A stretch of DNA of 64,000 bases from Escherichia phage vB_Eco_Jura, in sequence record LR999871; one strand, 5' to 3'. Shown here piece by piece: positions 34,377 to 41,516 of the stretch; position 1 is the stretch's first letter; the number at the start of each line of letters is the position of its first letter. The position numbers were made by a program, and so were the translations under genes. The notes under the pieces are model-generated. The model was not told where the DNA came from and searched no databases. It was given only the letters and a program-made list of their open reading frames with translations.

Positions 34377-35969
34377 TCACACGATATATGAAGAGAGTGG
34401 GTTAACACTTCCAGTATCATCACCATCATCCCACAATGGGTCACCTGATGTATTAACTGGAACCATACCTGCTTGTGGTTTCCACGGGTTCAGGTAGCCA
34501 AGCATTGAAATGGTATCAATACAGTCATCCTTACCTTTAAGACCATTGATAGTGGCTAAACGAATTTGCCCCATAAAGAGTGTCATGATTGGGCTATCTT
34601 TCATCTCAGCAGGAAAATACATCTTACCAGCTTTGAACCAGGGAACCACGAGGTTAAACCTTGATAGCTTACTGGTTACAGGATGAATACCAGGTTGACC
34701 TCCACGACTGGATGCAAAGTTAAAGAACACATTACGGTTAAGCATTTCCTTCTGAAGAAGACAAATAAAACCACCTTGCTGTCCAGTAGTTTCTACACCA
34801 ACTTGTTGTGGTTGATATTCCTGAACCAGACGGAATAAGTCATCAAAGTTCTTATCCATAGTTTGACGGCAAGCAATACCATCTACCCAGAACCAGTCAC
34901 CGTTAGAACCATATGCCCATACTGATATTACAGAGTAGTCAGATACCTGCTTCTCGCTGGTAGCAAAGTCAGTGGTGATATAGAAGTTATAACAAGAACG
35001 TAGACGTAATAGCTGCGTACGGGAATACCATTTAATCTCTGAATCTTGAATCAGACGTTCATCTTCAGAGCTGATACGTAACATCAATTCCTGATAAAAG
35101 GATGCCAGCTTACCTGTCTTCAATGCCATCTGGTATTGGTCATTGATGTAGTCATAGGAGAAACGGTCTTCCCAAGCACCTTGAAATTCTTCTCGCGTAC
35201 ATGGGAATTTCTCACATACAGGCCATACGTTGACATCCCAAGCACCAGATTCAACTGCTTCAATAAGAATATCTTCCTTATTAAAGGGAGTACCATTAAA
35301 GATTACCTTACGTCTTGTTGGGTCAAGAGCATGGTTCACACCCTTATATACCGTGTCTTTAATGGCTTCCATTGATGTACGTGAGCGAGCATCATCATCG
35401 CTAACTAAGTCATCCAGTACACAAAGAACAGGACGTTTACCAAAAATCTTAGTACCACGAAGACCTGTCTTAGCACCAAACATCTTCACACCAAGACGGT
35501 GACCTTCAGCATTTACAAACTCAAGGTAGTTATCTGTGAAGGTAGCTTTAGGAATCCATTGTTGTAGGAATGGTGAATTGTTGTATCGAAACTCAATGTT
35601 CTTACGGGCAGACTTAACACCGTTATCCATAGAGTCAGATACATAAATCATTCCCTCTACTTTACCCAAGCTAGGTAGATGCCCAAACACCGCTAAGAAC
35701 AGAGTAAAGTATTCCATGAACAAAGTTGTCTTTGCTGCACCACGGAAACATAAGTTAGCAATGTACTGATTCTTACTGGTTATCTTATCCAGCATCTTTA
35801 AGTGAACAGGAGGGGTTTTGTTTGATTCCCCCTCCTTACCATTAACCAGCTTAATAAAGTTAGCAAAGGTCAGTGCAAACTCAGTTGGTATATACGTAGG
35901 GGTATTCAGAACGGAATAGTCCACTTGGTCTAGCCATTCATCCAACTCCTGTTTAATTAGTTCAGACAT
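34377..35969 (-). CDS. terL: Terminase large subunit
   Basis: Deviant Walker A (FRGAAKTT), Walker B (VLCVLDDL), C-terminal nuclease-like domain; start MSELIKQ with GAGGA RBS, overlapping upstream stop. Confidence 0.85.
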   Translation of the reverse strand: MSELIKQELDEWLDQVDYSVLNTPTYIPTEFALTFANFIKLVNGKEGESNKTPPVHLKMLDKITSKNQYIANLCFRGAAKTTLFMEYFTLFLAVFGHLPSLGKVEGMIYVSDSMDNGVKSARKNIEFRYNNSPFLQQWIPKATFTDNYLEFVNAEGHRLGVKMFGAKTGLRGTKIFGKRPVLCVLDDLVSDDDARSRTSMEAIKDTVYKGVNHALDPTRRKVIFNGTPFNKEDILIEAVESGAWDVNVWPVCEKFPCTREEFQGAWEDRFSYDYINDQYQMALKTGKLASFYQELMLRISSEDERLIQDSEIKWYSRTQLLRLRSCYNFYITTDFATSEKQVSDYSVISVWAYGSNGDWFWVDGIACRQTMDKNFDDLFRLVQEYQPQQVGVETTGQQGGFICLLQKEMLNRNVFFNFASSRGGQPGIHPVTSKLSRFNLVVPWFKAGKMYFPAEMKDSPIMTLFMGQIRLATINGLKGKDDCIDTISMLGYLNPWKPQAGMVPVNTSGDPLWDDGDDTGSVNPLSSYIV

Positions 35970-36654
35970 CAATAATATCCTCGTCTTCTCGAACCAGTGT
36001 GGAACCTGCAATTACTTTAGTAGGTGTACCGGCTTCAATAGCTGCTTTCTGAGCCTCAGCCAACTGGGTTAGTGTGTTCTTGAGTTCAGTCAATCCAGAG
36101 TTTTCTCTCAAATCCAGATTGATATTAGTAACAGCATCCTTCGGTTTCTGGAGGTGAGTAAGGATAGAGTTGGCAGCATCACACTGTACCTTCTCACTGG
36201 TAGCATTCTTCATGAGCCATGCCTGATGGTTCAATGCTTCCTGAAACAAATCCTGATTAACAATCCATACTGGAATCAGTGATTGTTCCATAATGAGGTT
36301 TACTAACTTACCTCTATGGTAAGCAGATACATAAGCAGAGATGTCCTTCTCACTGGTTCCCCTTGCTACTAATTCAGCTTGTCTGTTGGGGAATGTTTTG
36401 AAGTAAGCATCTTTGTTGCTATACCCCATGTGTTTGTAAGTAACATATTGAACAGCATTAAGGTAATCCTGGGTCTTAAACTTCCCATCCTTCATCACCC
36501 CAGCATAAGTCACAAAGTTATTTCTAATTTGCTCTGCTGCTGTCTGGTCTTGGGTCACATTGTTAATCATGTTTACCAGTTGGTCAGTAACACTGCTTTT
36601 AAACTGGGGAGGCAATGCAGAAACAATGTCTTTCTTCGTCAGTAGTGTGCTCAT
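35962..36654 (-). CDS. Putative terminase small subunit (N4 gp69-like position), 230 aa
   Basis: Immediately upstream of and overlapping terL; no motif recognised. Confidence 0.45.
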   Translation of the reverse strand: MSTLLTKKDIVSALPPQFKSSVTDQLVNMINNVTQDQTAAEQIRNNFVTYAGVMKDGKFKTQDYLNAVQYVTYKHMGYSNKDAYFKTFPNRQAELVARGTSEKDISAYVSAYHRGKLVNLIMEQSLIPVWIVNQDLFQEALNHQAWLMKNATSEKVQCDAANSILTHLQKPKDAVTNINLDLRENSGLTELKNTLTQLAEAQKAAIEAGTPTKVIAGSTLVREDEDIIDV

Positions 36655-36781
36655 AGTCTTCCTACAAATTATCTAGAGTGAAGAGGATTCTTTTCTTGGG
36701 GTTAGCACCCCTTGCAGAAACCTATACATAGATTTAGACTTTAGACTTTCTTTAGTCTCCTTACAATAGTAAGACAGAGAC

Positions 36782-37123
36782 ATGGGGAGCCTATTGCCCA
36801 AAGGAACCAGTAACATGAGACTATTCTATAGTTTTGACGGTAATGACCAATGGAATGAGATAGACTTCAGTAAAATAGGTGGAGCTATCCCAGTTGGAGG
36901 GGCTATGCCAGGTGACCATATCTTATGTCACGATGAGGAGTCTTTCCATTACATCTCAGGTATGATGTTAATCAATAACGTCACTGGGTTTACTGTCCAT
37001 AAACCTGCACCAGTACGTGTCATTACCAAGCCTATCGAGGGTCTTGCATTCTTTACAAGAATACCTCAAAGTATCTCTATCAAACGACAGCGTGACGCCA
37101 TCGAGATGACCGTGGTTGCTTGA
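36782..37123 (+). CDS. Hypothetical protein (113 aa) in junction region
   Basis: ORF followed by hairpins; weak RBS; could be non-coding. Confidence 0.3.
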   Translation: MGSLLPKGTSNMRLFYSFDGNDQWNEIDFSKIGGAIPVGGAMPGDHILCHDEESFHYISGMMLINNVTGFTVHKPAPVRVITKPIEGLAFFTRIPQSISIKRQRDAIEMTVVA

Positions 37124-37286
37124 TAAGCCATTGCCCGCCCAGGAGTTGGTGGCGGGAAACAGGGAACTGTTTGAATAACCACTCCAGCTACATTCACCTA
37201 TCTCCAAGACACCTTTGTTATCTGCCATTGGGTGATGAGTAGTATCAGAGAGAACTGATTTAACAAACACACTCGGTATAGGAATT

Positions 37287-37314
37287 GGGAGCCAAATGGC
37301 TCCCTTTTTCTTTT
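37287..37314 (+). terminator. Rho-independent terminator
   Basis: GGGAGCC-aaat-GGCTCCC followed by TTTTTCTTTT. Confidence 0.6.
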
Positions 37315-37333
37315 ATGAACCAAGGAGTTCTAT

Positions 37334-37699
37334 ATGAACATTCGTCCTAATGAAGTTTATGGTATCAACCTAGAATACACTACAAACAAACCTGCTCTAT
37401 TTCACTGTGGTTCCACCAATCTATTCCATGCTATGTGTGGTAATACCAAACCTCTTTACTTACCCGAATCAGACGATACTCATGCCCTACTAGGTAACTG
37501 GTTCTTAGAAGGTAAAGACATTAGTACCATTCTCCTTGAACCAAGGAAGAAAGTAGCAATACCTACTAATGCATGGAATAACGAAGTCATTTACTTCCTC
37601 GCACCTGAAGGCTTTGAACCAGTGATAGAACAGAATCACTTTAATCATGCAGTTACTTTCTACTTCAGAGAGACTTCAAAGTTATCTGCTTATAAATAA
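37334..37699 (+). CDS. Hypothetical protein, 121 aa
   Basis: ORF with AAGGAG RBS. Confidence 0.6.
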   Translation: MNIRPNEVYGINLEYTTNKPALFHCGSTNLFHAMCGNTKPLYLPESDDTHALLGNWFLEGKDISTILLEPRKKVAIPTNAWNNEVIYFLAPEGFEPVIEQNHFNHAVTFYFRETSKLSAYK

Positions 37700-37707
37700 G
37701 GAAAGCT

Positions 37708-37836
37708 ATGTGGTATATAACAGTTAAAGGTTTACCCGAACCAGTGATGATAGATAGCCTGGCATTCGTAGAAGTAGGTCATCCTATTCTTATAGAAGGT
37801 AAGTTGTATGAAGTTGTTAGTATTTATAAGAGATAA
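37708..37836 (+). CDS. Small hypothetical ORF (42 aa)
   Basis: ATG with AAGGAAAG RBS; below track size cutoff. Confidence 0.3.
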   Translation: MWYITVKGLPEPVMIDSLAFVEVGHPILIEGKLYEVVSIYKR

Positions 37837-37943
37837 ATAGGAAGTCTATTAGATAGATACCCTATAATTTTTTCTTAGTGAAAATAGTCATAGTTACTTA
37901 TGAGTTCAGTATTTGGTGGGGCTACACCCCTTACACCATAAGC

Positions 37944-37953
37944 ACCCCCCCCC
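37944..37953. repeat. Homopolymeric C tract (about 10 C)
   Basis: gcaccccccccccctg within C-rich repeats just upstream of first hairpin promoter. Confidence 0.7.
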
Positions 37954-38003
37954 CTGTCTTTACTAGTGTAGCCTTAGCCTACCCCACCTTGTACACGTTA
38001 CAC

Positions 38004-38022
38004 GTTGCTTCGCAACTTATGG
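38004..38022 (+). promoter_or_regulatory. Hairpin promoter P-a, N4 vRNAP type (GTTGC-TTC-GCAAC, then ttatGG)
   Basis: 5-bp stem, 3-nt loop; GG at +11/+12 from loop centre, same spacing as the other two; template-strand loop GAA. Confidence 0.55.
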
Positions 38023-38067
38023 ACATGTTGTCCGTATCTTATCAATCAACTATTGGAGACTAATACT

Positions 38068-38394
38068 ATGACTACTCAGGCTAACGTTCGTATGACTGTA
38101 GGAACTCTGTTGGGTACTGTTAACGAAGCAGCAACTACTGTAGCTGATACATTCGGTACTGCTACTAAAGCAGTAGGTATGCTTAATCGTTATGTAACTA
38201 AACAAGCAGATAAACAAATCATTCGTGACAAATTAGAAATGCATGAGTTTACCAATAAACTTATTGAAGAAACTGCAATGCAAGAAGCTATTCGTCAGAA
38301 ACAAATCTTAGACTTCTGCAAAGATGAACAAAACAAAGAATTGTTCTCTAATGCCTATGACCGTCTTAGCAAAATCTTAGCAGACTCTAAATAA
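38068..38394 (+). CDS. Early hypothetical protein, 108 aa
   Basis: ATG with GGAGAC RBS downstream of P-a; followed by terminator. Confidence 0.6.
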   Translation: MTTQANVRMTVGTLLGTVNEAATTVADTFGTATKAVGMLNRYVTKQADKQIIRDKLEMHEFTNKLIEETAMQEAIRQKQILDFCKDEQNKELFSNAYDRLSKILADSK

Positions 38395-38406
38395 TAACAA
38401 ACAAAT

Positions 38407-38430
38407 GGAGGCTCCTCGGAGTCTCCTTTT
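38407..38430 (+). terminator. Rho-independent terminator
   Basis: GGAGGCTCC/GGAGTCTCC hairpin followed by TTTT. Confidence 0.55.
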
Positions 38431-38470
38431 ACATAGAACCGATAGTTCAATAACTATCTACTTTAAAGAT

Positions 38471-38491
38471 AAGAAGCTCCGCTTCTTTTGG
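38471..38491 (+). promoter_or_regulatory. Hairpin promoter P-b, N4 vRNAP type (AAGAAGC-TCC-GCTTCTT, then ttGG)
   Basis: 7-bp stem, 3-nt loop; minus-strand reading CATCCAAAAGAAGCGGAGCTTCTT matches my recollection of N4 early promoter P2. Confidence 0.65.
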
Positions 38492-38595
38492 ATGAAGTAA
38501 TGCATCCAATCCTGTATGAAATCTTAACCTTTTGTCTGGGATTACTTACCGACAAAGTAGTCTCAACTAATCAAAATCAACTATCTGGAGAGTAC

Positions 38596-38985
38596 AAAAT
38601 GGCTATCACTACTTTTGCTAAAACCTTTGGTCAGGCTTCTACTAAAACCGAATCCAACAATGGTTCTCGTCCAAAAGCTCAGTTCTGGATTAACGTTGGC
38701 TATGTAGCTAATGAAGGCACTGAAGATGAACGTTTCATCTCTCTGCCTACTGGTATTCCACTGGATACTCAGGAGCATCTGCCAACCAATTCCTCTAACG
38801 AAGACTTCCGTGCAATGCGTTGTGCACAGAACGATTTGTTAGACCAACTGATGGAATTTGCTAAGACTCTGGAACCGGGTCAAGAAGGAGTTATCTCACT
38901 GCAAGTTCAACTTCGTCGAGTTAAAGAAGAAGCTCCTGCTATCTCAGCAAGTGAGAATAAATATGCTCGTAAACTGACTTTCTAA
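38596..38985 (+). CDS. Early hypothetical protein, 129 aa (alternative start at 38500)
   Basis: Start MAITTF with GGAGAG RBS; in-frame upstream ATG at 38500 lies 10 nt past predicted +1. Confidence 0.55.
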
Positions 38986-38993
38986 TCTCTATA

Positions 38994-39018
38994 GGACTAC
39001 CTTCGGGTAGTCCTTTTT
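38994..39018 (+). terminator. Rho-independent terminator
   Basis: GGACTACC-ttcg-GGTAGTCC followed by TTTTT. Confidence 0.65.
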
Positions 39019-39127
39019 AATTTTAACTATCTAAATACTAAAGTAGAGATTTTGACCCTTTTCGACGAAGGGATACTAAAAAGTAATGGATAGTTTGAGC
39101 AGATGTTTTAGAAGAAGGAGTATACAG

Positions 39128-39442
39128 ATGCATCCTCTTATAAAACGATTCCTGATGGACTATCAGGAGTGGTTAGATAATGGAGCCAGTGAACCTCATT
39201 ACCTGTTTGATAGGGGTAGTGGACTGTGTGTTCAACTAGGCAAATATCTTAGAAGACAGCCAATCAGTGAAGAAACAGTAGATACTCTGTGTAAGAGCTT
39301 TACTCATTTACTTCCTGATAATGATACCAATCTACCATTCAATGTAGATGTTCTCGACTACATGATGGAATGTTCTGATGGAAGATGTCATCTGAACCAA
39401 AGTCGAATTAATTGGATTAAGAGTCAGTTGGAGAGTAAGTAA
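39128..39442 (+). CDS. Hypothetical protein, 104 aa
   Basis: Start MHPLIKRF with GAAGGAG RBS. Confidence 0.55.
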   Translation: MHPLIKRFLMDYQEWLDNGASEPHYLFDRGSGLCVQLGKYLRRQPISEETVDTLCKSFTHLLPDNDTNLPFNVDVLDYMMECSDGRCHLNQSRINWIKSQLESK

Positions 39443-39445
39443 ATT

Positions 39446-39883
39446 ATGTCATATGAAATTGTAAAACATTGGACTTCTAAGGCTGGGCTGAAGGCTTGGG
39501 TATTGCTGGTAAATGGTGGTAGCCATCATTGTGGTTATGTGGAAATACCAGAAGCATTACTGGATAAAAACTTCTATGACTATATATGTGATGATGAAGA
39601 AACACTTCATATTACAGTACATGGTGGAGTTACCTATCAAGGTGTTCCTCAGTGGGCTGATGGGATTAAAGTCATAGGTTATGACTGTGCTCATGCAGGG
39701 GATAAACTGAAATGTCCTAAACAATTCATTGGCTCTCTTAGGGAGAGACTCTATGAGGATTCTTATGGAGTATGGCGAGATGAAGAATACTGCATCAATG
39801 AATGTGAAAGCATGGCAGACCAGTTAATTAACCTGATACCAAAATTAGGGTTTAACGATGAAATTCAGAACAGTAATGGTTAA
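39446..39883 (+). CDS. Hypothetical protein, 145 aa
   Basis: ORF 3 nt after previous stop. Confidence 0.6.
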   Translation: MSYEIVKHWTSKAGLKAWVLLVNGGSHHCGYVEIPEALLDKNFYDYICDDEETLHITVHGGVTYQGVPQWADGIKVIGYDCAHAGDKLKCPKQFIGSLRERLYEDSYGVWRDEEYCINECESMADQLINLIPKLGFNDEIQNSNG

Positions 39884-40055
39884 TGCTCTTGATACCAGGG
39901 GTAATGAAATCATTAGCTATAAAGTGCAAGGCTTTAAATGGTTCAAATGGAAAACATTAACTAGCTTTAAAGAATTTGAGAAAGATAAAGCTATTAAGTT
40001 AACCAAGAAATTGAACCAACGTAAGAAGATTAAATTAGTTACTGTAATTAAATAA
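39876..40055 (+). CDS. Small basic hypothetical protein, 59 aa
   Basis: ATG overlapping previous stop; Lys-rich. Confidence 0.4.
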   Translation: MVNALDTRGNEIISYKVQGFKWFKWKTLTSFKEFEKDKAIKLTKKLNQRKKIKLVTVIK

Positions 40056-40065
40056 GGATAAGGCA

Positions 40066-40224
40066 ATGCGTAAATCACTAATCATGGGAACCAAAGAAGA
40101 CGTTGCTAAGATGAAAGCTAAACGTCAGATGAATAAAGCAGTAACGTTTGCAGAACGTTATAGTACGTCTGAACCAGTACGTCGTATTGTTACTTTCAAC
40201 CATCCAGCTATTAAGGGTATGTAA
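40066..40224 (+). CDS. Small hypothetical ORF (52 aa)
   Basis: ATG with AAGGATAAGG RBS; stop overlaps next start; below track cutoff. Confidence 0.35.
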   Translation: MRKSLIMGTKEDVAKMKAKRQMNKAVTFAERYSTSEPVRRIVTFNHPAIKGM

Positions 40225-40433
40225 TGCAAACTAAAGATAAGAAAGACTTAGAACGTCTTCTCCGTGTATATGGTGATTATGCATTGTTAGCAGAGATAAC
40301 TAATATTATCGAAGAAGACTGTCGTAACGGTTATGCCAATAACCCACAAGCAATAATTCATCGTGATGCAGTAGTGCTTAGAGAAGCAGTCAGTAAGATG
40401 CAAGCATTACATCCATTAAGACAGCGAGCATAA
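40224..40433 (+). CDS. Hypothetical protein, 69 aa
   Basis: ORF followed by terminator. Confidence 0.5.
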   Translation: MQTKDKKDLERLLRVYGDYALLAEITNIIEEDCRNGYANNPQAIIHRDAVVLREAVSKMQALHPLRQRA

Positions 40434-40436
40434 ATA

Positions 40437-40470
40437 GGAGGGGGCTACTAAGCCCTCTTCTTATTTTTAT
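40437..40470 (+). terminator. Rho-independent terminator
   Basis: GGGGGCT-acta-AGCCCTC hairpin followed by T-rich run. Confidence 0.55.
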
Positions 40471-40506
40471 CGTGGTTATTAAGCAACTATCTTAGAGGAA
40501 GGAATA

Positions 40507-40722
40507 ATGGAACAGTTAAACTACGGTTATAAGATTAAACGCAATCAAGTAAGAGGTTCTTGGTTATTTCTCGTTTATGGTAAACCAATCTATGAATTAC
40601 ATCGTGGAGAGAAATCCAAGACCTATTACGTAACTCATATTGCTACAGGAAAAACTCCTGCATGTGCAGGATTGCTTCGTGATGCAATTATGAAAGCATG
40701 TATGTTAGAAGGACTTCTATGA
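40507..40722 (+). CDS. Hypothetical protein, 71 aa
   Basis: ORF with GGAAGGAA RBS. Confidence 0.5.
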   Translation: MEQLNYGYKIKRNQVRGSWLFLVYGKPIYELHRGEKSKTYYVTHIATGKTPACAGLLRDAIMKACMLEGLL

Positions 40723-41033
40723 ACCAAATCATTGCTATCCCGCAGCATAAAGCTCGTATTGCTGACAGGAATATTCGTATTCATTATCCAATGCCTTTGA
40801 GTAATCCATTTCAGAAAAATGAGAGAACCACGGATGAAGATATAGCAGCAGCTTATGAGGCATATCTTCGTAACCGTTTGGTAAGTGGTGACAAGCTCAT
40901 TACGGCTGAAATGGAACGAATTGCTAAATTCGTTATAGATGATACTGACAAACCCGTTGGCCTCATTGGTAATGAACTGGAAGTGAATGTAATCCGTAAG
41001 ATTATTATGGAGGCTCTTAATGGGAATCAGTGA
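40719..41033 (+). CDS. Hypothetical protein, 104 aa
   Basis: Start MNQIIAIP overlapping previous stop (ATGA). Confidence 0.5.
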   Translation: MNQIIAIPQHKARIADRNIRIHYPMPLSNPFQKNERTTDEDIAAAYEAYLRNRLVSGDKLITAEMERIAKFVIDDTDKPVGLIGNELEVNVIRKIIMEALNGNQ

Positions 41034-41196
41034 ATCCCAGGCTATGGCTATTAAACAGTTAGCCTTCAACTGCCTTAGTGCTATGAAGGCATTTAATGAA
41101 GCAAAAACTTTCCCTGACCAGAATAAAGCTCGTATTCGACTTTATCAGTCTAAGAAAGATTTTGAAGAATATCTGGAAAGTATTACGGTGAAATAA
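41023..41196 (+). CDS. Small hypothetical ORF (57 aa)
   Basis: Bridges two genes with overlapping start and stop; below track cutoff. Confidence 0.35.
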   Translation, partial: GISESQAMAIKQLAFNCLSAMKAFNEAKTFPDQNKARIRLYQSKKDFEEYLESITVK

Positions 41197-41516
41197 TGAA
41201 AACAATATTAATTGTTCATGATGCTGATTTTAATGATGTTGATAAAATGATGCGTAATATTGATTATGTAGCTCAGACAACTCCAGCATTTAAAGAAGAA
41301 TTTACTCTATATTGTGATGCTAATTCACCATTAGTTCCCATTCTGAAAGAAGCTGGTTTACCCTTCTCTACAGATAATTTCCCTGAAGAACCTGATTATG
41401 TAATTTCATTTATTTATGACTTACATGATGGCTCAGAACCAAGTGAATTGACTATGAGTCAATGGAAATCCAGAAGACCTGTATATGCATTTCAGGTAGT
41501 TAAATCAAGGAGTTAA
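41196..41516 (+). CDS. Hypothetical protein, 106 aa
   Basis: ORF in tightly packed array. Confidence 0.55.
   Translation: MKTILIVHDADFNDVDKMMRNIDYVAQTTPAFKEEFTLYCDANSPLVPILKEAGLPFSTDNFPEEPDYVISFIYDLHDGSEPSELTMSQWKSRRPVYAFQVVKSRS

What the first reader, a model, noticed from the sequence alone, without database searches (positions are those of the whole stretch)
36655..38067. Late/early junction with stacked hairpins, a C10 homopolymer and C-rich repeats: candidate genome terminus or packaging region
Between the divergent terminase-side and early-side genes lies 1.4 kb with little convincing coding and several hairpins (for example 37134-37156 CCCGCC/GGCGGG, 37157-37175 AAACAG/CTGTTT, terminator 37287-37314), a 10-C tract at 37944-37953 and C-rich repeats, ending at promoter P-a. 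In N4 the vRNAP promoters lie just inside the left terminal repeat, so the physical ends of a linear genome with direct terminal repeats would map here if the assembly was circularised. The C10 tract is also a possible slippage site.
Basis: partly seen in the sequence, partly recalled or inferred. Interest (0 to 1): 0.5.

Follow-up and report, generated by a model that had tools for sequence, protein, structure and literature searches.

The report
Phage N4 genome end and repeat
The flagged stretch is the already-mapped place where the linear genome of coliphage N4 begins and ends, joined here because the assembly collapsed the terminal repeat; it also holds three small real genes, so it is mostly ordinary.

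Summary
The window is a permuted assembly of a phage 98% identical to coliphage N4. The direct terminal repeat runs rightward from 37914 to about 38325 (N4 range 390-440 bp, so 38304-38354). That lies mostly outside the flagged interval and inside gene gp1. It contains early promoter P1 (hairpin 38004-38016, start 38021). "Little convincing coding" is wrong: gp70, gp71 and gp72 fill 57% of the interval and each matches a phage protein family. The stacked hairpins and the terminator are real but sit between gp70 and gp71; the hairpins occur only in close N4 relatives. The C10 tract is real (37945-37954, off by one) and is the longest homopolymer in 64 kb. It varies from C8 to C12 among near-identical genomes. 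A C-tract of 6 or more, with TACAC repeats and a CCCTACCCC box, precedes only the terminal promoter across two subfamilies and several metagenomic relatives. Sequence upstream of the cut is conserved too. Separately, the gp69/gp70 spacer holds a strongly conserved sigma-70-type promoter plus a structured leader.

The parts
35962..36654 (-). gp69, annotated elsewhere as putative small terminase; overlaps large terminase gp68 and is the first gene of the leftward late block
   Evidence: PHROG 2109. The fold gave no significant match to solved small terminases.
36662..36744 (.). Module A: non-coding stretch conserved about 80% with G7C-like phages; contains hairpin GGGGTTAGCACCCC at 36698-36711
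36712..36740 (+). Sigma-70-type promoter for gp70: -35 TTGCAG (36712-17), 17-nt spacer, -10 TAGACT (36735-40); predicted start near 36747
   Evidence: TTGnnn-17-TA(G/C)ACT, always with a 17-nt spacer, in 21 of 21 Enquatrovirinae- and Rothmandenesvirinae-like loci. The start site is inferred.
36734..36808 (+). Module B: very conserved -10 plus gp70 leader, with hairpins 36755-36781 and 36784-36799
   Evidence: 92% identical to Pseudomonas phage inbricus and Achromobacter phage Axy13, against 69-72% for the terminase genes. 99.2% of cells paired, 4 compensatory pairs, 0 of 500 shuffles as good.
36815..37123 (+). gp70, 102 aa, function unknown
   Evidence: (PHROG 7213 aligns from residue 12 of the longer ORF)
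37134..37172 (+). Two stacked hairpins just after the gp70 stop codon; found only in close N4 relatives
   Evidence: z -2.96; no match beyond Enquatrovirus for 37124-37233
37287..37314 (+). Intrinsic terminator (7-bp GC-rich stem, then TTTTTCTTTT) 20 nt before gp71; it lies inside a stretch, 37234-37327, that is conserved with KP8-like phages
37334..37699 (+). gp71, 121 aa, function unknown
   Evidence: PHROG 9160
37708..37836 (+). gp72, 42 aa, function unknown
   Evidence: (PHROG 19797)
37837..37913 (+). Last 77 nt of the unique right end. Terminator-like hairpin plus T6 (37837-37873), palindrome TCATAG/TTATGA (37888-37903), and CAGTATT (37907-37913) abutting the cut. Conserved across subfamilies although it is outside the repeat.
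37914..38325 (+). Direct terminal repeat, present as a single collapsed copy. The left physical end is 37914 (plus or minus 3). The right boundary is inferred at 38325 from KP8 and IME11; the N4 range of 390-440 bp gives 38304-38354.
   Evidence: literature
37923..38003 (+). Terminal module: TACAC repeats at 37923, 37932, 37992 and 37999, and the CCTACCCCACC box at 37978-37988
37945..37954 (+). C10 tract, variable in length (C8-C12 within the species; C6-C13 in relatives), 53 nt before the P1 heptamer and 32 nt from the end
38004..38021 (+). Early promoter P1 for the virion RNA polymerase: hairpin GTTGC-TTC-GCAAC, centre (-11) at 38010, start G at 38021
   Evidence: Matches the promoter rules in PMC4496689 and KP8 P1.
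38068..38394 (+). gp1; the repeat ends inside this gene at the TTCTGCAAAGAT motif (38314-38325)
38473..38490 (+). Early promoter P2 (GAAGC-TCC-GCTTC, start 38490); outside the repeat and lacking the C-tract and TACAC repeats

Best explanation
The interval spans the end-to-start junction of a linear N4-type genome whose short direct terminal repeat was collapsed to one copy by assembly. This is the same arrangement as a concatemer junction. Read left to right, it holds the following. First comes the promoter and leader region between the divergent gp69 and gp70 genes. Then come three small rightward genes (gp70-72) with their own hairpins and terminators. Next is a conserved 77-nt flank ending in CAGTATT, followed by the left physical end at 37914. 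The repeat of about 412 bp follows. It opens with TACAC repeats, a C-tract and a CCCTACCCC box, then carries early promoter P1 and the first 258 nt of gp1. Shown here: colinearity with the N4 record ends, agreement with ends mapped in relatives, the identity of P1, the coding status of gp70-72, and the length variation and conservation of the C-tract. Inferred: during packaging, terminase recognises the conserved sequence on both sides of 37913|37914 and cuts there to make the precise left end. The right end is cut about 400 bp further on and the repeat is duplicated by DNA synthesis, as in T7-type short-repeat phages. N4 shows a ladder of right ends at 390-440 bp. After ejection, the left end enters first and the virion RNA polymerase starts at P1, 108 nt in.
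For: N4 record base 70153 maps to window 37913 and base 1 to 37914, with 98% identity on both sides and no repeat shared between the record's ends. Records of KP8, G7C, PhAPEC7, PD38, PBM-2 and UE-S5a start or end within a few bases of the homologous position, several with two copies. KP8's 404-bp repeat maps to about 37912-38325. IME11 read pile-ups start at GTGGCTGGGGCTACACCC and lie 401 bp apart. PhageTerm reports a 401-bp repeat in UE phages. The literature gives N4 a repeat of 390-440 bp, 3' extensions, a unique left end and several right ends. P1 meets the promoter rules. The repeat occurs once in the window. Conservation spans both sides of the cut in eight genomes from two subfamilies and in distant metagenomic relatives. 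The upstream side adjoins the left end only in concatemers. The C-tract and TACAC module precedes the first promoter in 10 of 10 loci and none of 14 later promoters.
Against: No reads, coverage or virion DNA data were available, so the ends in this particular phage are inferred by homology. The N4-type records that start at this base may simply follow the N4 convention. Independent metagenome assemblies carrying the identical gp72 all run through the junction, and none breaks at it. The right boundary of the repeat is not known for this species; in Axy13 it lies 16 nt past the motif used in KP8 and IME11. The role of terminase at the conserved flank is untested, and gp69 could not be confirmed as a small terminase by fold.
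Confidence: 0.88

Rival explanations
1. The terminal module (TACAC repeats, C-tract, CCCTACCCC box) is not a packaging signal. It serves ejection and early transcription instead. For example, it could be a binding site that anchors the incoming DNA end, so that gyrase can supercoil the first 100 bp and extrude the P1 hairpin.
For: The module lies inside the repeat, between the end and P1. Its spacing to the P1 heptamer is fixed within each subfamily (53-54 nt or 46-47 nt) although the intervening sequence diverges. It occurs only at the terminal promoter. P1 needs supercoil-driven hairpin extrusion (PMC4496689), which a free end 100 bp away would not sustain; that last step is my inference.
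Against: In locus L041 an insertion of roughly 90-100 nt separates the module from P1, so the spacing is not obligatory. Conservation also extends upstream of the cut into DNA that is absent from the injected left end, and this idea does not explain that. No binding protein is known.
Confidence: 0.3
2. One reading: about 1.4 kb of largely non-coding DNA whose stacked hairpins are structural packaging or terminus signals.
For: The hairpins are real and more stable than shuffled sequence.
Against: 57% of the interval is conserved protein-coding sequence. The hairpins lie 600-780 nt before the end, directly after the gp70 stop codon and before gp71. The double hairpin is absent outside close N4 relatives, whereas the terminus architecture is conserved widely.
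Confidence: 0.04
3. The C-tract length differences are sequencing or assembly errors in a homopolymer, not biological slippage.
For: Homopolymers of 9-12 are error-prone on several platforms. Every value comes from a consensus assembly.
Against: Five lengths (C8, C9, C10, C11, C12) appear across about 15 independent records and assemblies. These show no other indel in the repeat, apart from one metagenome assembly (L114) that apparently carries one further indel between gp72 and gp1. Relatives range from C6 to C13.
Confidence: 0.3
4. The genome has no fixed ends here: packaging is headful with circular permutation, or the ends lie elsewhere.
For: One relative's record (Bp4) carries a note 'circularly permutated genome'. 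Assemblies run through the junction.
Against: N4 and many relatives have defined ends mapped at this homologous site by several methods.
Confidence: 0.02

Closest known systems
Coliphage N4 genome ends (Ohmori, Haynes and Rothman-Denes 1988, as cited in PMC3670811, PMC3715699 and PMC3896407)
   Same: Same species-level sequence (98% identity). The record junction falls at 37913|37914. The short direct repeat holds P1. The early genes run rightward from the left end.
   Different: The window has C10 where N4 has C9, plus a few substitutions. The repeat is collapsed to one copy in a permuted assembly. Overhangs and right-end heterogeneity cannot be seen in sequence alone.
Short-repeat termini of N4-like relatives: IME11 (401 bp), UE-S5a/UE-M3 (401 bp), KP8 (404 bp), Axy13 (404 bp)
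   Same: Homologous left end (GGGGCTACACCC or TACAC repeats), a C-tract about 32 nt in, P1 downstream, and a repeat of about 400 bp ending inside gp1.
   Different: About 76% identity or less. The tract is C7 followed by GGTA rather than C10 followed by TGTC. The genes between gp69 and the end differ in number and kind.
T7/T3 concatemer junction (short direct repeat, site-specific cutting, repeat duplicated by synthesis; from my own knowledge of that literature)
   Same: Short exact repeat, arrays of short sequence repeats near the repeat ends, and a conserved sequence in the unique right end next to the repeat. PhageTerm classes relatives as 'T7-like short DTR'.
   Different: N4 has 3' extensions and several right ends, a different terminase lineage, and a hairpin promoter for a virion RNA polymerase inside the repeat. 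No functional mapping of pac-type sites exists for N4 as far as I could find.
N4 virion RNA polymerase hairpin promoters P1-P3
   Same: GC-rich heptamer centred at -11, a 5-bp stem with a 3-nt loop, and template-strand -11 purine, -10 G, -8 G and +1 C.
   Different: None for P1 itself. Only P1 carries the upstream C-tract and TACAC module.

Membership tests
N4-type genome terminus (fixed left end plus short direct terminal repeat) | Sequence colinear with the end-to-start junction of the N4 reference genome | tested here: met
   N4 67500-70153 maps to window 35260-37913, and N4 1-3500 maps to 37914-41414, both at 98%.
N4-type genome terminus (fixed left end plus short direct terminal repeat) | Left end coincides with ends mapped experimentally or from reads in relatives | tested here: met
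   the IME11, KP8, G7C and UE-phage ends fall within about 3 nt of the homolog of 37914.
N4-type genome terminus (fixed left end plus short direct terminal repeat) | The same 390-440 bp is present at both ends of virion DNA | not testable with these tools
   The window holds one copy, and no N4-type record carries two. This needs reads or virion DNA.
N4-type genome terminus (fixed left end plus short direct terminal repeat) | 3' single-stranded extensions; unique left end and several right ends | not testable with these tools
   Known only from literature cited.
N4 virion RNA polymerase promoter | GC-rich heptamer centred at -11, flanked by an inverted repeat (5-7 bp stem, 3-nt loop) | tested here: met
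   GCTTCGC at 38007-13 within GTTGC-TTC-GCAAC at 38004-16.
N4 virion RNA polymerase promoter | Template strand has -11 purine, -10 G, -8 G and +1 C | tested here: met
   Read directly from the sequence: top strand T38010, C38011, C38013, G38021. Rules taken from PMC4496689.
N4 virion RNA polymerase promoter | Transcription by the virion polymerase with gyrase and E. coli SSB | not testable with these tools
   Biochemical property.
T7-like short-repeat packaging | Sharp read-start peaks at both repeat boundaries and doubled coverage between them | not testable with these tools
   Reported for relatives. No reads were available for this phage.
Intrinsic (Rho-independent) terminator, 37287-37314 | GC-rich stem-loop followed by a T-run | tested here: met
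   7-bp stem with 6 GC pairs, 4-nt loop, then TTTTTCTTTT; z -2.76.
Small terminase subunit (gp69) | Fold or sequence similarity to characterised small terminases | tested here: inconclusive
Sigma-70-type promoter (upstream of gp70) | -35 TTG and -10 TAnnnT at about 17-bp spacing, conserved where the spacer sequence is not | tested here: met
   TTGnnn-17-TA(G/C)ACT in 21 of 21 loci from two subfamilies. The start site was not mapped.

The most novel reading that the evidence does not exclude
The first 90 bp or so of the repeat (TACAC repeats, a C-tract that is always present but variable in length, a CCCTACCCC box), together with the conserved 30-80 bp just outside the cut, may form one dedicated end-recognition element. 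It is shared by at least two Schitoviridae subfamilies and several distant metagenomic relatives. It would be read by terminase to set the precise left end. It might also be read by an ejected protein that clamps the DNA end so that the P1 hairpin, only 100 bp from a free end, can be extruded by supercoiling. Slippage in the C-tract would then tune packaging or the onset of early transcription. The near-constant repeat length of about 400 bp, even where the boundary sequence differs (Axy13 against KP8), would reflect a ruler-type second cut.
Probability: 0.3. Interest if true: 0.5.

Novelty: already known. Interest (0 to 1): 0.25.

Why it matters
For this genome the practical value is correct annotation. 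The record should start at 37914, carry a terminal repeat of about 400 bp, list gp70-72 as genes, and flag the C-tract as a site whose length may be mis-called or may truly vary. More widely, the comparison shows that N4-like phages share a compact, terminus-specific sequence module whose function nobody appears to have tested. It offers a defined target for asking two questions. How does an N4-type terminase find its cut site? How does a hairpin promoter 100 bp from a free DNA end become supercoiled?

Tried and rejected
(1) Rfam scan of 36400-38700 at E up to 1 found nothing. ARAGORN found tRNAs only at 212-890.

(2) The first 80 nt of the repeat were folded on both strands. Neither is more stable than shuffles (z +0.35 and -0.63), so a strong terminal hairpin is not supported, despite the GGCTACAC/GTGTAGCC inverted repeat that flanks the C-tract.

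(3) I asked whether the module A hairpin (GGGGTTAGCACCCC) is a second copy of the terminal GGGGCTACACCCC motif. I rejected this because the resemblance does not hold in KP8 or G7C.

(4) A leftward -10 (TACTAT, the complement of 36766-71) looked conserved. It lies inside the palindromic leader hairpin and has no -35, so I do not claim it.

(5) TATAAT at 37863-68 as a promoter firing toward the end: not conserved. The conserved T-run there fits a terminator after gp72.

(6) gp69 fold search found no convincing small-terminase match.

(8) I looked for contig breaks at the terminus in public assemblies with identical gp72. There are none.

(9) The library held nothing on a C-tract at N4-like termini. 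Ohmori 1988 and Choi 2008 are not held.

Full report
IDENTITY OF THE WINDOW. A megablast of 36400-38400 against annotated phages gives 98-99.5% identity to coliphage N4 and its close relatives AL25, SPSP and PMBT57. The decisive result is the alignment to the N4 reference EF056009, a linear record of 70,153 bp. N4 67500-70153 aligns to window 35260-37913, and N4 1-3500 aligns to window 37914-41414. Both alignments are at 98%, and the two record ends share no repeat with each other. The flagged interval therefore spans the point where the N4 record ends and begins again. The window is a permuted assembly in which the terminal repeat was collapsed to a single copy. The repeat sequence occurs only once in the 64 kb.

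CHECK OF THE OBSERVATION. CCCGCC/GGCGGG lies at 37134-37156 and AAACAG/CTGTTT at 37157-37172. Together they fold at -11 kcal/mol as DNA, with z -2.96. The terminator at 37287-37304 plus its T-run is found by the pattern scan and is annotated in AL25. The C10 tract lies at 37945-37954, one base to the right of the stated position. It is the longest homopolymer in the window. The first 90 nt after 37914 are 40% C on the top strand, against 21% genome-wide.

The statement "little convincing coding" does not hold. N4 gp70, gp71 and gp72 are annotated here. Each matches a PHROG family at E 3e-31 to 4e-48. Together they cover 804 of the 1413 nt.

THE TERMINUS. Secondary sources state that N4 has direct terminal repeats of 390-440 bp and 3' extensions. 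They also report a unique left end and about six right ends (PMC3670811; PMC3715699; PMC3896407). Ends mapped independently in relatives fall on the same homologous base, as follows.
- In IME11, read-start pile-ups begin at GTGGCTGGGGCTACACCC and lie 401 bp apart (checked against the record).
- KP8 carries an exact 404-bp repeat at both record ends, and this maps to window positions of about 37912-38325.
- PhageTerm gives 401 bp for four UE phages.
- G7C and Axy13 carry annotated terminal repeats.
- Many records start or end within a few bases of the homolog of 37914.

The right boundary in KP8 and IME11 is the gp1 codon string TTCTGCAAAGAT, which is window 38314-38325. In Axy13 the boundary lies 16 nt further on, although the repeat is again 404 bp. 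For this phage I therefore place the repeat at 37914 to about 38325. Applying the N4 range gives 38304-38354.

PROMOTER P1. The heptamer GCTYCGC occurs on the + strand at 38007, 38476 and 42465, matching N4's three early promoters. P1 is GTTGC-TTC-GCAAC at 38004-38016. Reading the template strand gives -11 A, -10 G, -8 G and +1 C, with the start at 38021. This is as required by the published rules (PMC4496689), and it matches KP8 P1. P1 lies 108 nt inside the repeat. P2, which starts at 38490, lies outside it.

THE C-TRACT. The tract varies in length among about 15 near-identical N4-type records and independent assemblies.

| Group | Lengths seen |
|---|---|
| Seven records, including the window | C8, C9, C9, C9, C10, C10, C12 |
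| Ten assemblies carrying the identical gp72; two of these (AL25, SPSP) are the same records as in the row above | C9 x4, C10 x4, C11, C12 |

The roughly 500-bp repeat region otherwise has about six substitutions and no other indel in the seven records. One metagenome assembly, L114, apparently carries one further indel between gp72 and gp1. The variation may be slippage or homopolymer mis-calling. Consensus sequences cannot tell these apart.

A CONSERVED TERMINAL ARCHITECTURE. Junction alignments cover N4, G7C, KP8, a KP8-like metagenome virus, Axy13, JWAlpha and two further Achromobacter phages. They show a common order of elements:
- a T-run after a hairpin;
- TGATAGnTAnGTAC;
- (C/T)AGTGT at the cut;
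- two to four (N)TACAC repeats;
- a C-tract of seven or more about 32 nt from the end;
- CCCTACCCC;
- two more TACAC repeats (in Enquatrovirinae);
- the P1 hairpin, with compensatory stem changes in the Achromobacter phages (GACGC-TCC-GCGTC).

I then fetched 80 viral contigs through gp69 homologs of 51-100% identity. Every Enquatrovirinae- or Rothmandenesvirinae-like locus that reaches a promoter hairpin has C6-C13 placed 52-65 nt before the heptamer, plus three to five TACAC repeats. The one exception is L041, where an insertion separates them. Several much more distant loci show TA-Cn-GG at a similar place. The module precedes the first promoter in 10 of 10 loci and none of 14 later promoters. 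In the window it precedes P1 but not P2 or P3. The module is therefore specific to the terminus and is not a general promoter element.

Conservation also reaches 30-80 nt upstream of the cut. That DNA adjoins the left end only in concatemers, so I favour a role in terminase recognition. An anchoring or promoter-activating role at the injected end is not excluded. I found no paper describing this module.

They lie 600-780 nt before the end, in the 210-nt spacer between gp70 and gp71. The first half of the spacer, which holds the stacked hairpins, has no match outside close N4 relatives. The second half, which holds the terminator, is about 80% identical in KP8-like phages. They are best read as 3'-end and terminator elements of the gp70 transcript, not as terminus signals. 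A further terminator-like hairpin plus T6 follows gp72 at 37837-37873.

THE gp69/gp70 SPACER. A 75-nt stretch, 36734-36808, is 92% identical in Pseudomonas phage inbricus and Achromobacter phage Axy13. These belong to another subfamily, and the stretch sits at the same syntenic place. It is more conserved than the terminase genes, which are 69-72% identical.

All 21 loci of the two subfamilies have TTGnnn, exactly 17 nt, then TA(G/C)ACT. In the window these are TTGCAG at 36712-17 and TAGACT at 36735-40. This fits a sigma-70-type promoter, the kind of host-polymerase promoter that N4-like phages use late in infection (PMC9163698).

Downstream, the + strand folds into hairpins at 36755-36781 and 36784-36799. 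Of the cells, 99.2% are paired, four pairs show compensatory changes, and 0 of 500 shuffles score as well. Slid controls give 20-51% pairing. The likely reading is a structured 5' leader for gp70. Its function is unknown.

PROTEINS. The gp69 model is all-helical (pLDDT 77) with no convincing match to solved small terminases. gp70 has few homologs, and its confident model has no informative structural neighbour.

VERDICT. The description of the interval as mostly non-coding is wrong. The modest new content has two parts. One is the terminus-specific module with a conserved but length-variable C-tract. The other is the strongly conserved promoter and leader upstream of gp70.

Noticed in passing
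window 36712-36808: Non-coding stretch more conserved (78-92%) than the terminase genes between subfamilies. It holds a TTGnnn-17-TAGACT promoter plus a leader with covarying hairpins upstream of gp70.
   Followed up: partly
window 36662-36744: Module A, conserved about 80% with G7C-like phages. It contains hairpin GGGGTTAGCACCCC, which would lie in the 5' untranslated region of a leftward gp69 transcript.
   Followed up: partly
window 37234-37327: The second half of the gp70-gp71 spacer, including the terminator, is 78-92% identical in Klebsiella KP8-like phages. The flanking stacked hairpins are not conserved there. It could be a small RNA or a conserved 3' untranslated region.
   Followed up: partly
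window 36815-37123 (gp70): gp70 has only 11 representative homologs among 1.8 billion proteins. Its domain matches 7 and 4 separate stretches in two large proteins of 808 and 1415 aa. The model is confident but has no informative structural neighbour.
   Followed up: partly
L041 (IMG/VR 3300006879_000003), upstream of the first promoter hairpin: An insertion of roughly 90-100 nt separates the CCCTACCCC/TACAC module from the P1 hairpin. This is the only exception to the otherwise fixed spacing.
   Followed up: no
L030 (KP8-like viral contig): Its C-tract is C13, against C7 in sibling genomes. The tract therefore varies in length in other genera too.
   Followed up: no
L107 (ENA scaffold MUNK18-1...scaffold_13): A 142,545-bp metagenome scaffold carrying this phage is about twice the genome length. 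It is probably a tandem (concatemer-like) assembly artefact of the collapsed repeat.
   Followed up: no
window 212-890: Four tRNA genes (Asn, Ser, Thr, Pro) cluster at the start of the window.
   Followed up: no
window about 36000-39000: Cumulative GC skew reaches its minimum here. This coincides with the switch from leftward late genes to rightward early genes and with the terminus.
   Followed up: no
window 38068-38394 (gp1): Precomputed annotations list Pfam PF26891 (Phage_N4_Gp1) for this protein, but the Pfam copy I scanned returned no hit.
   Followed up: no
L008/L009 (inbricus, Axy13) 1762-2460: Rothmandenesvirinae carry an extra gene of about 232 aa between gp69 and the conserved promoter module. 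N4 lacks it.
   Followed up: no
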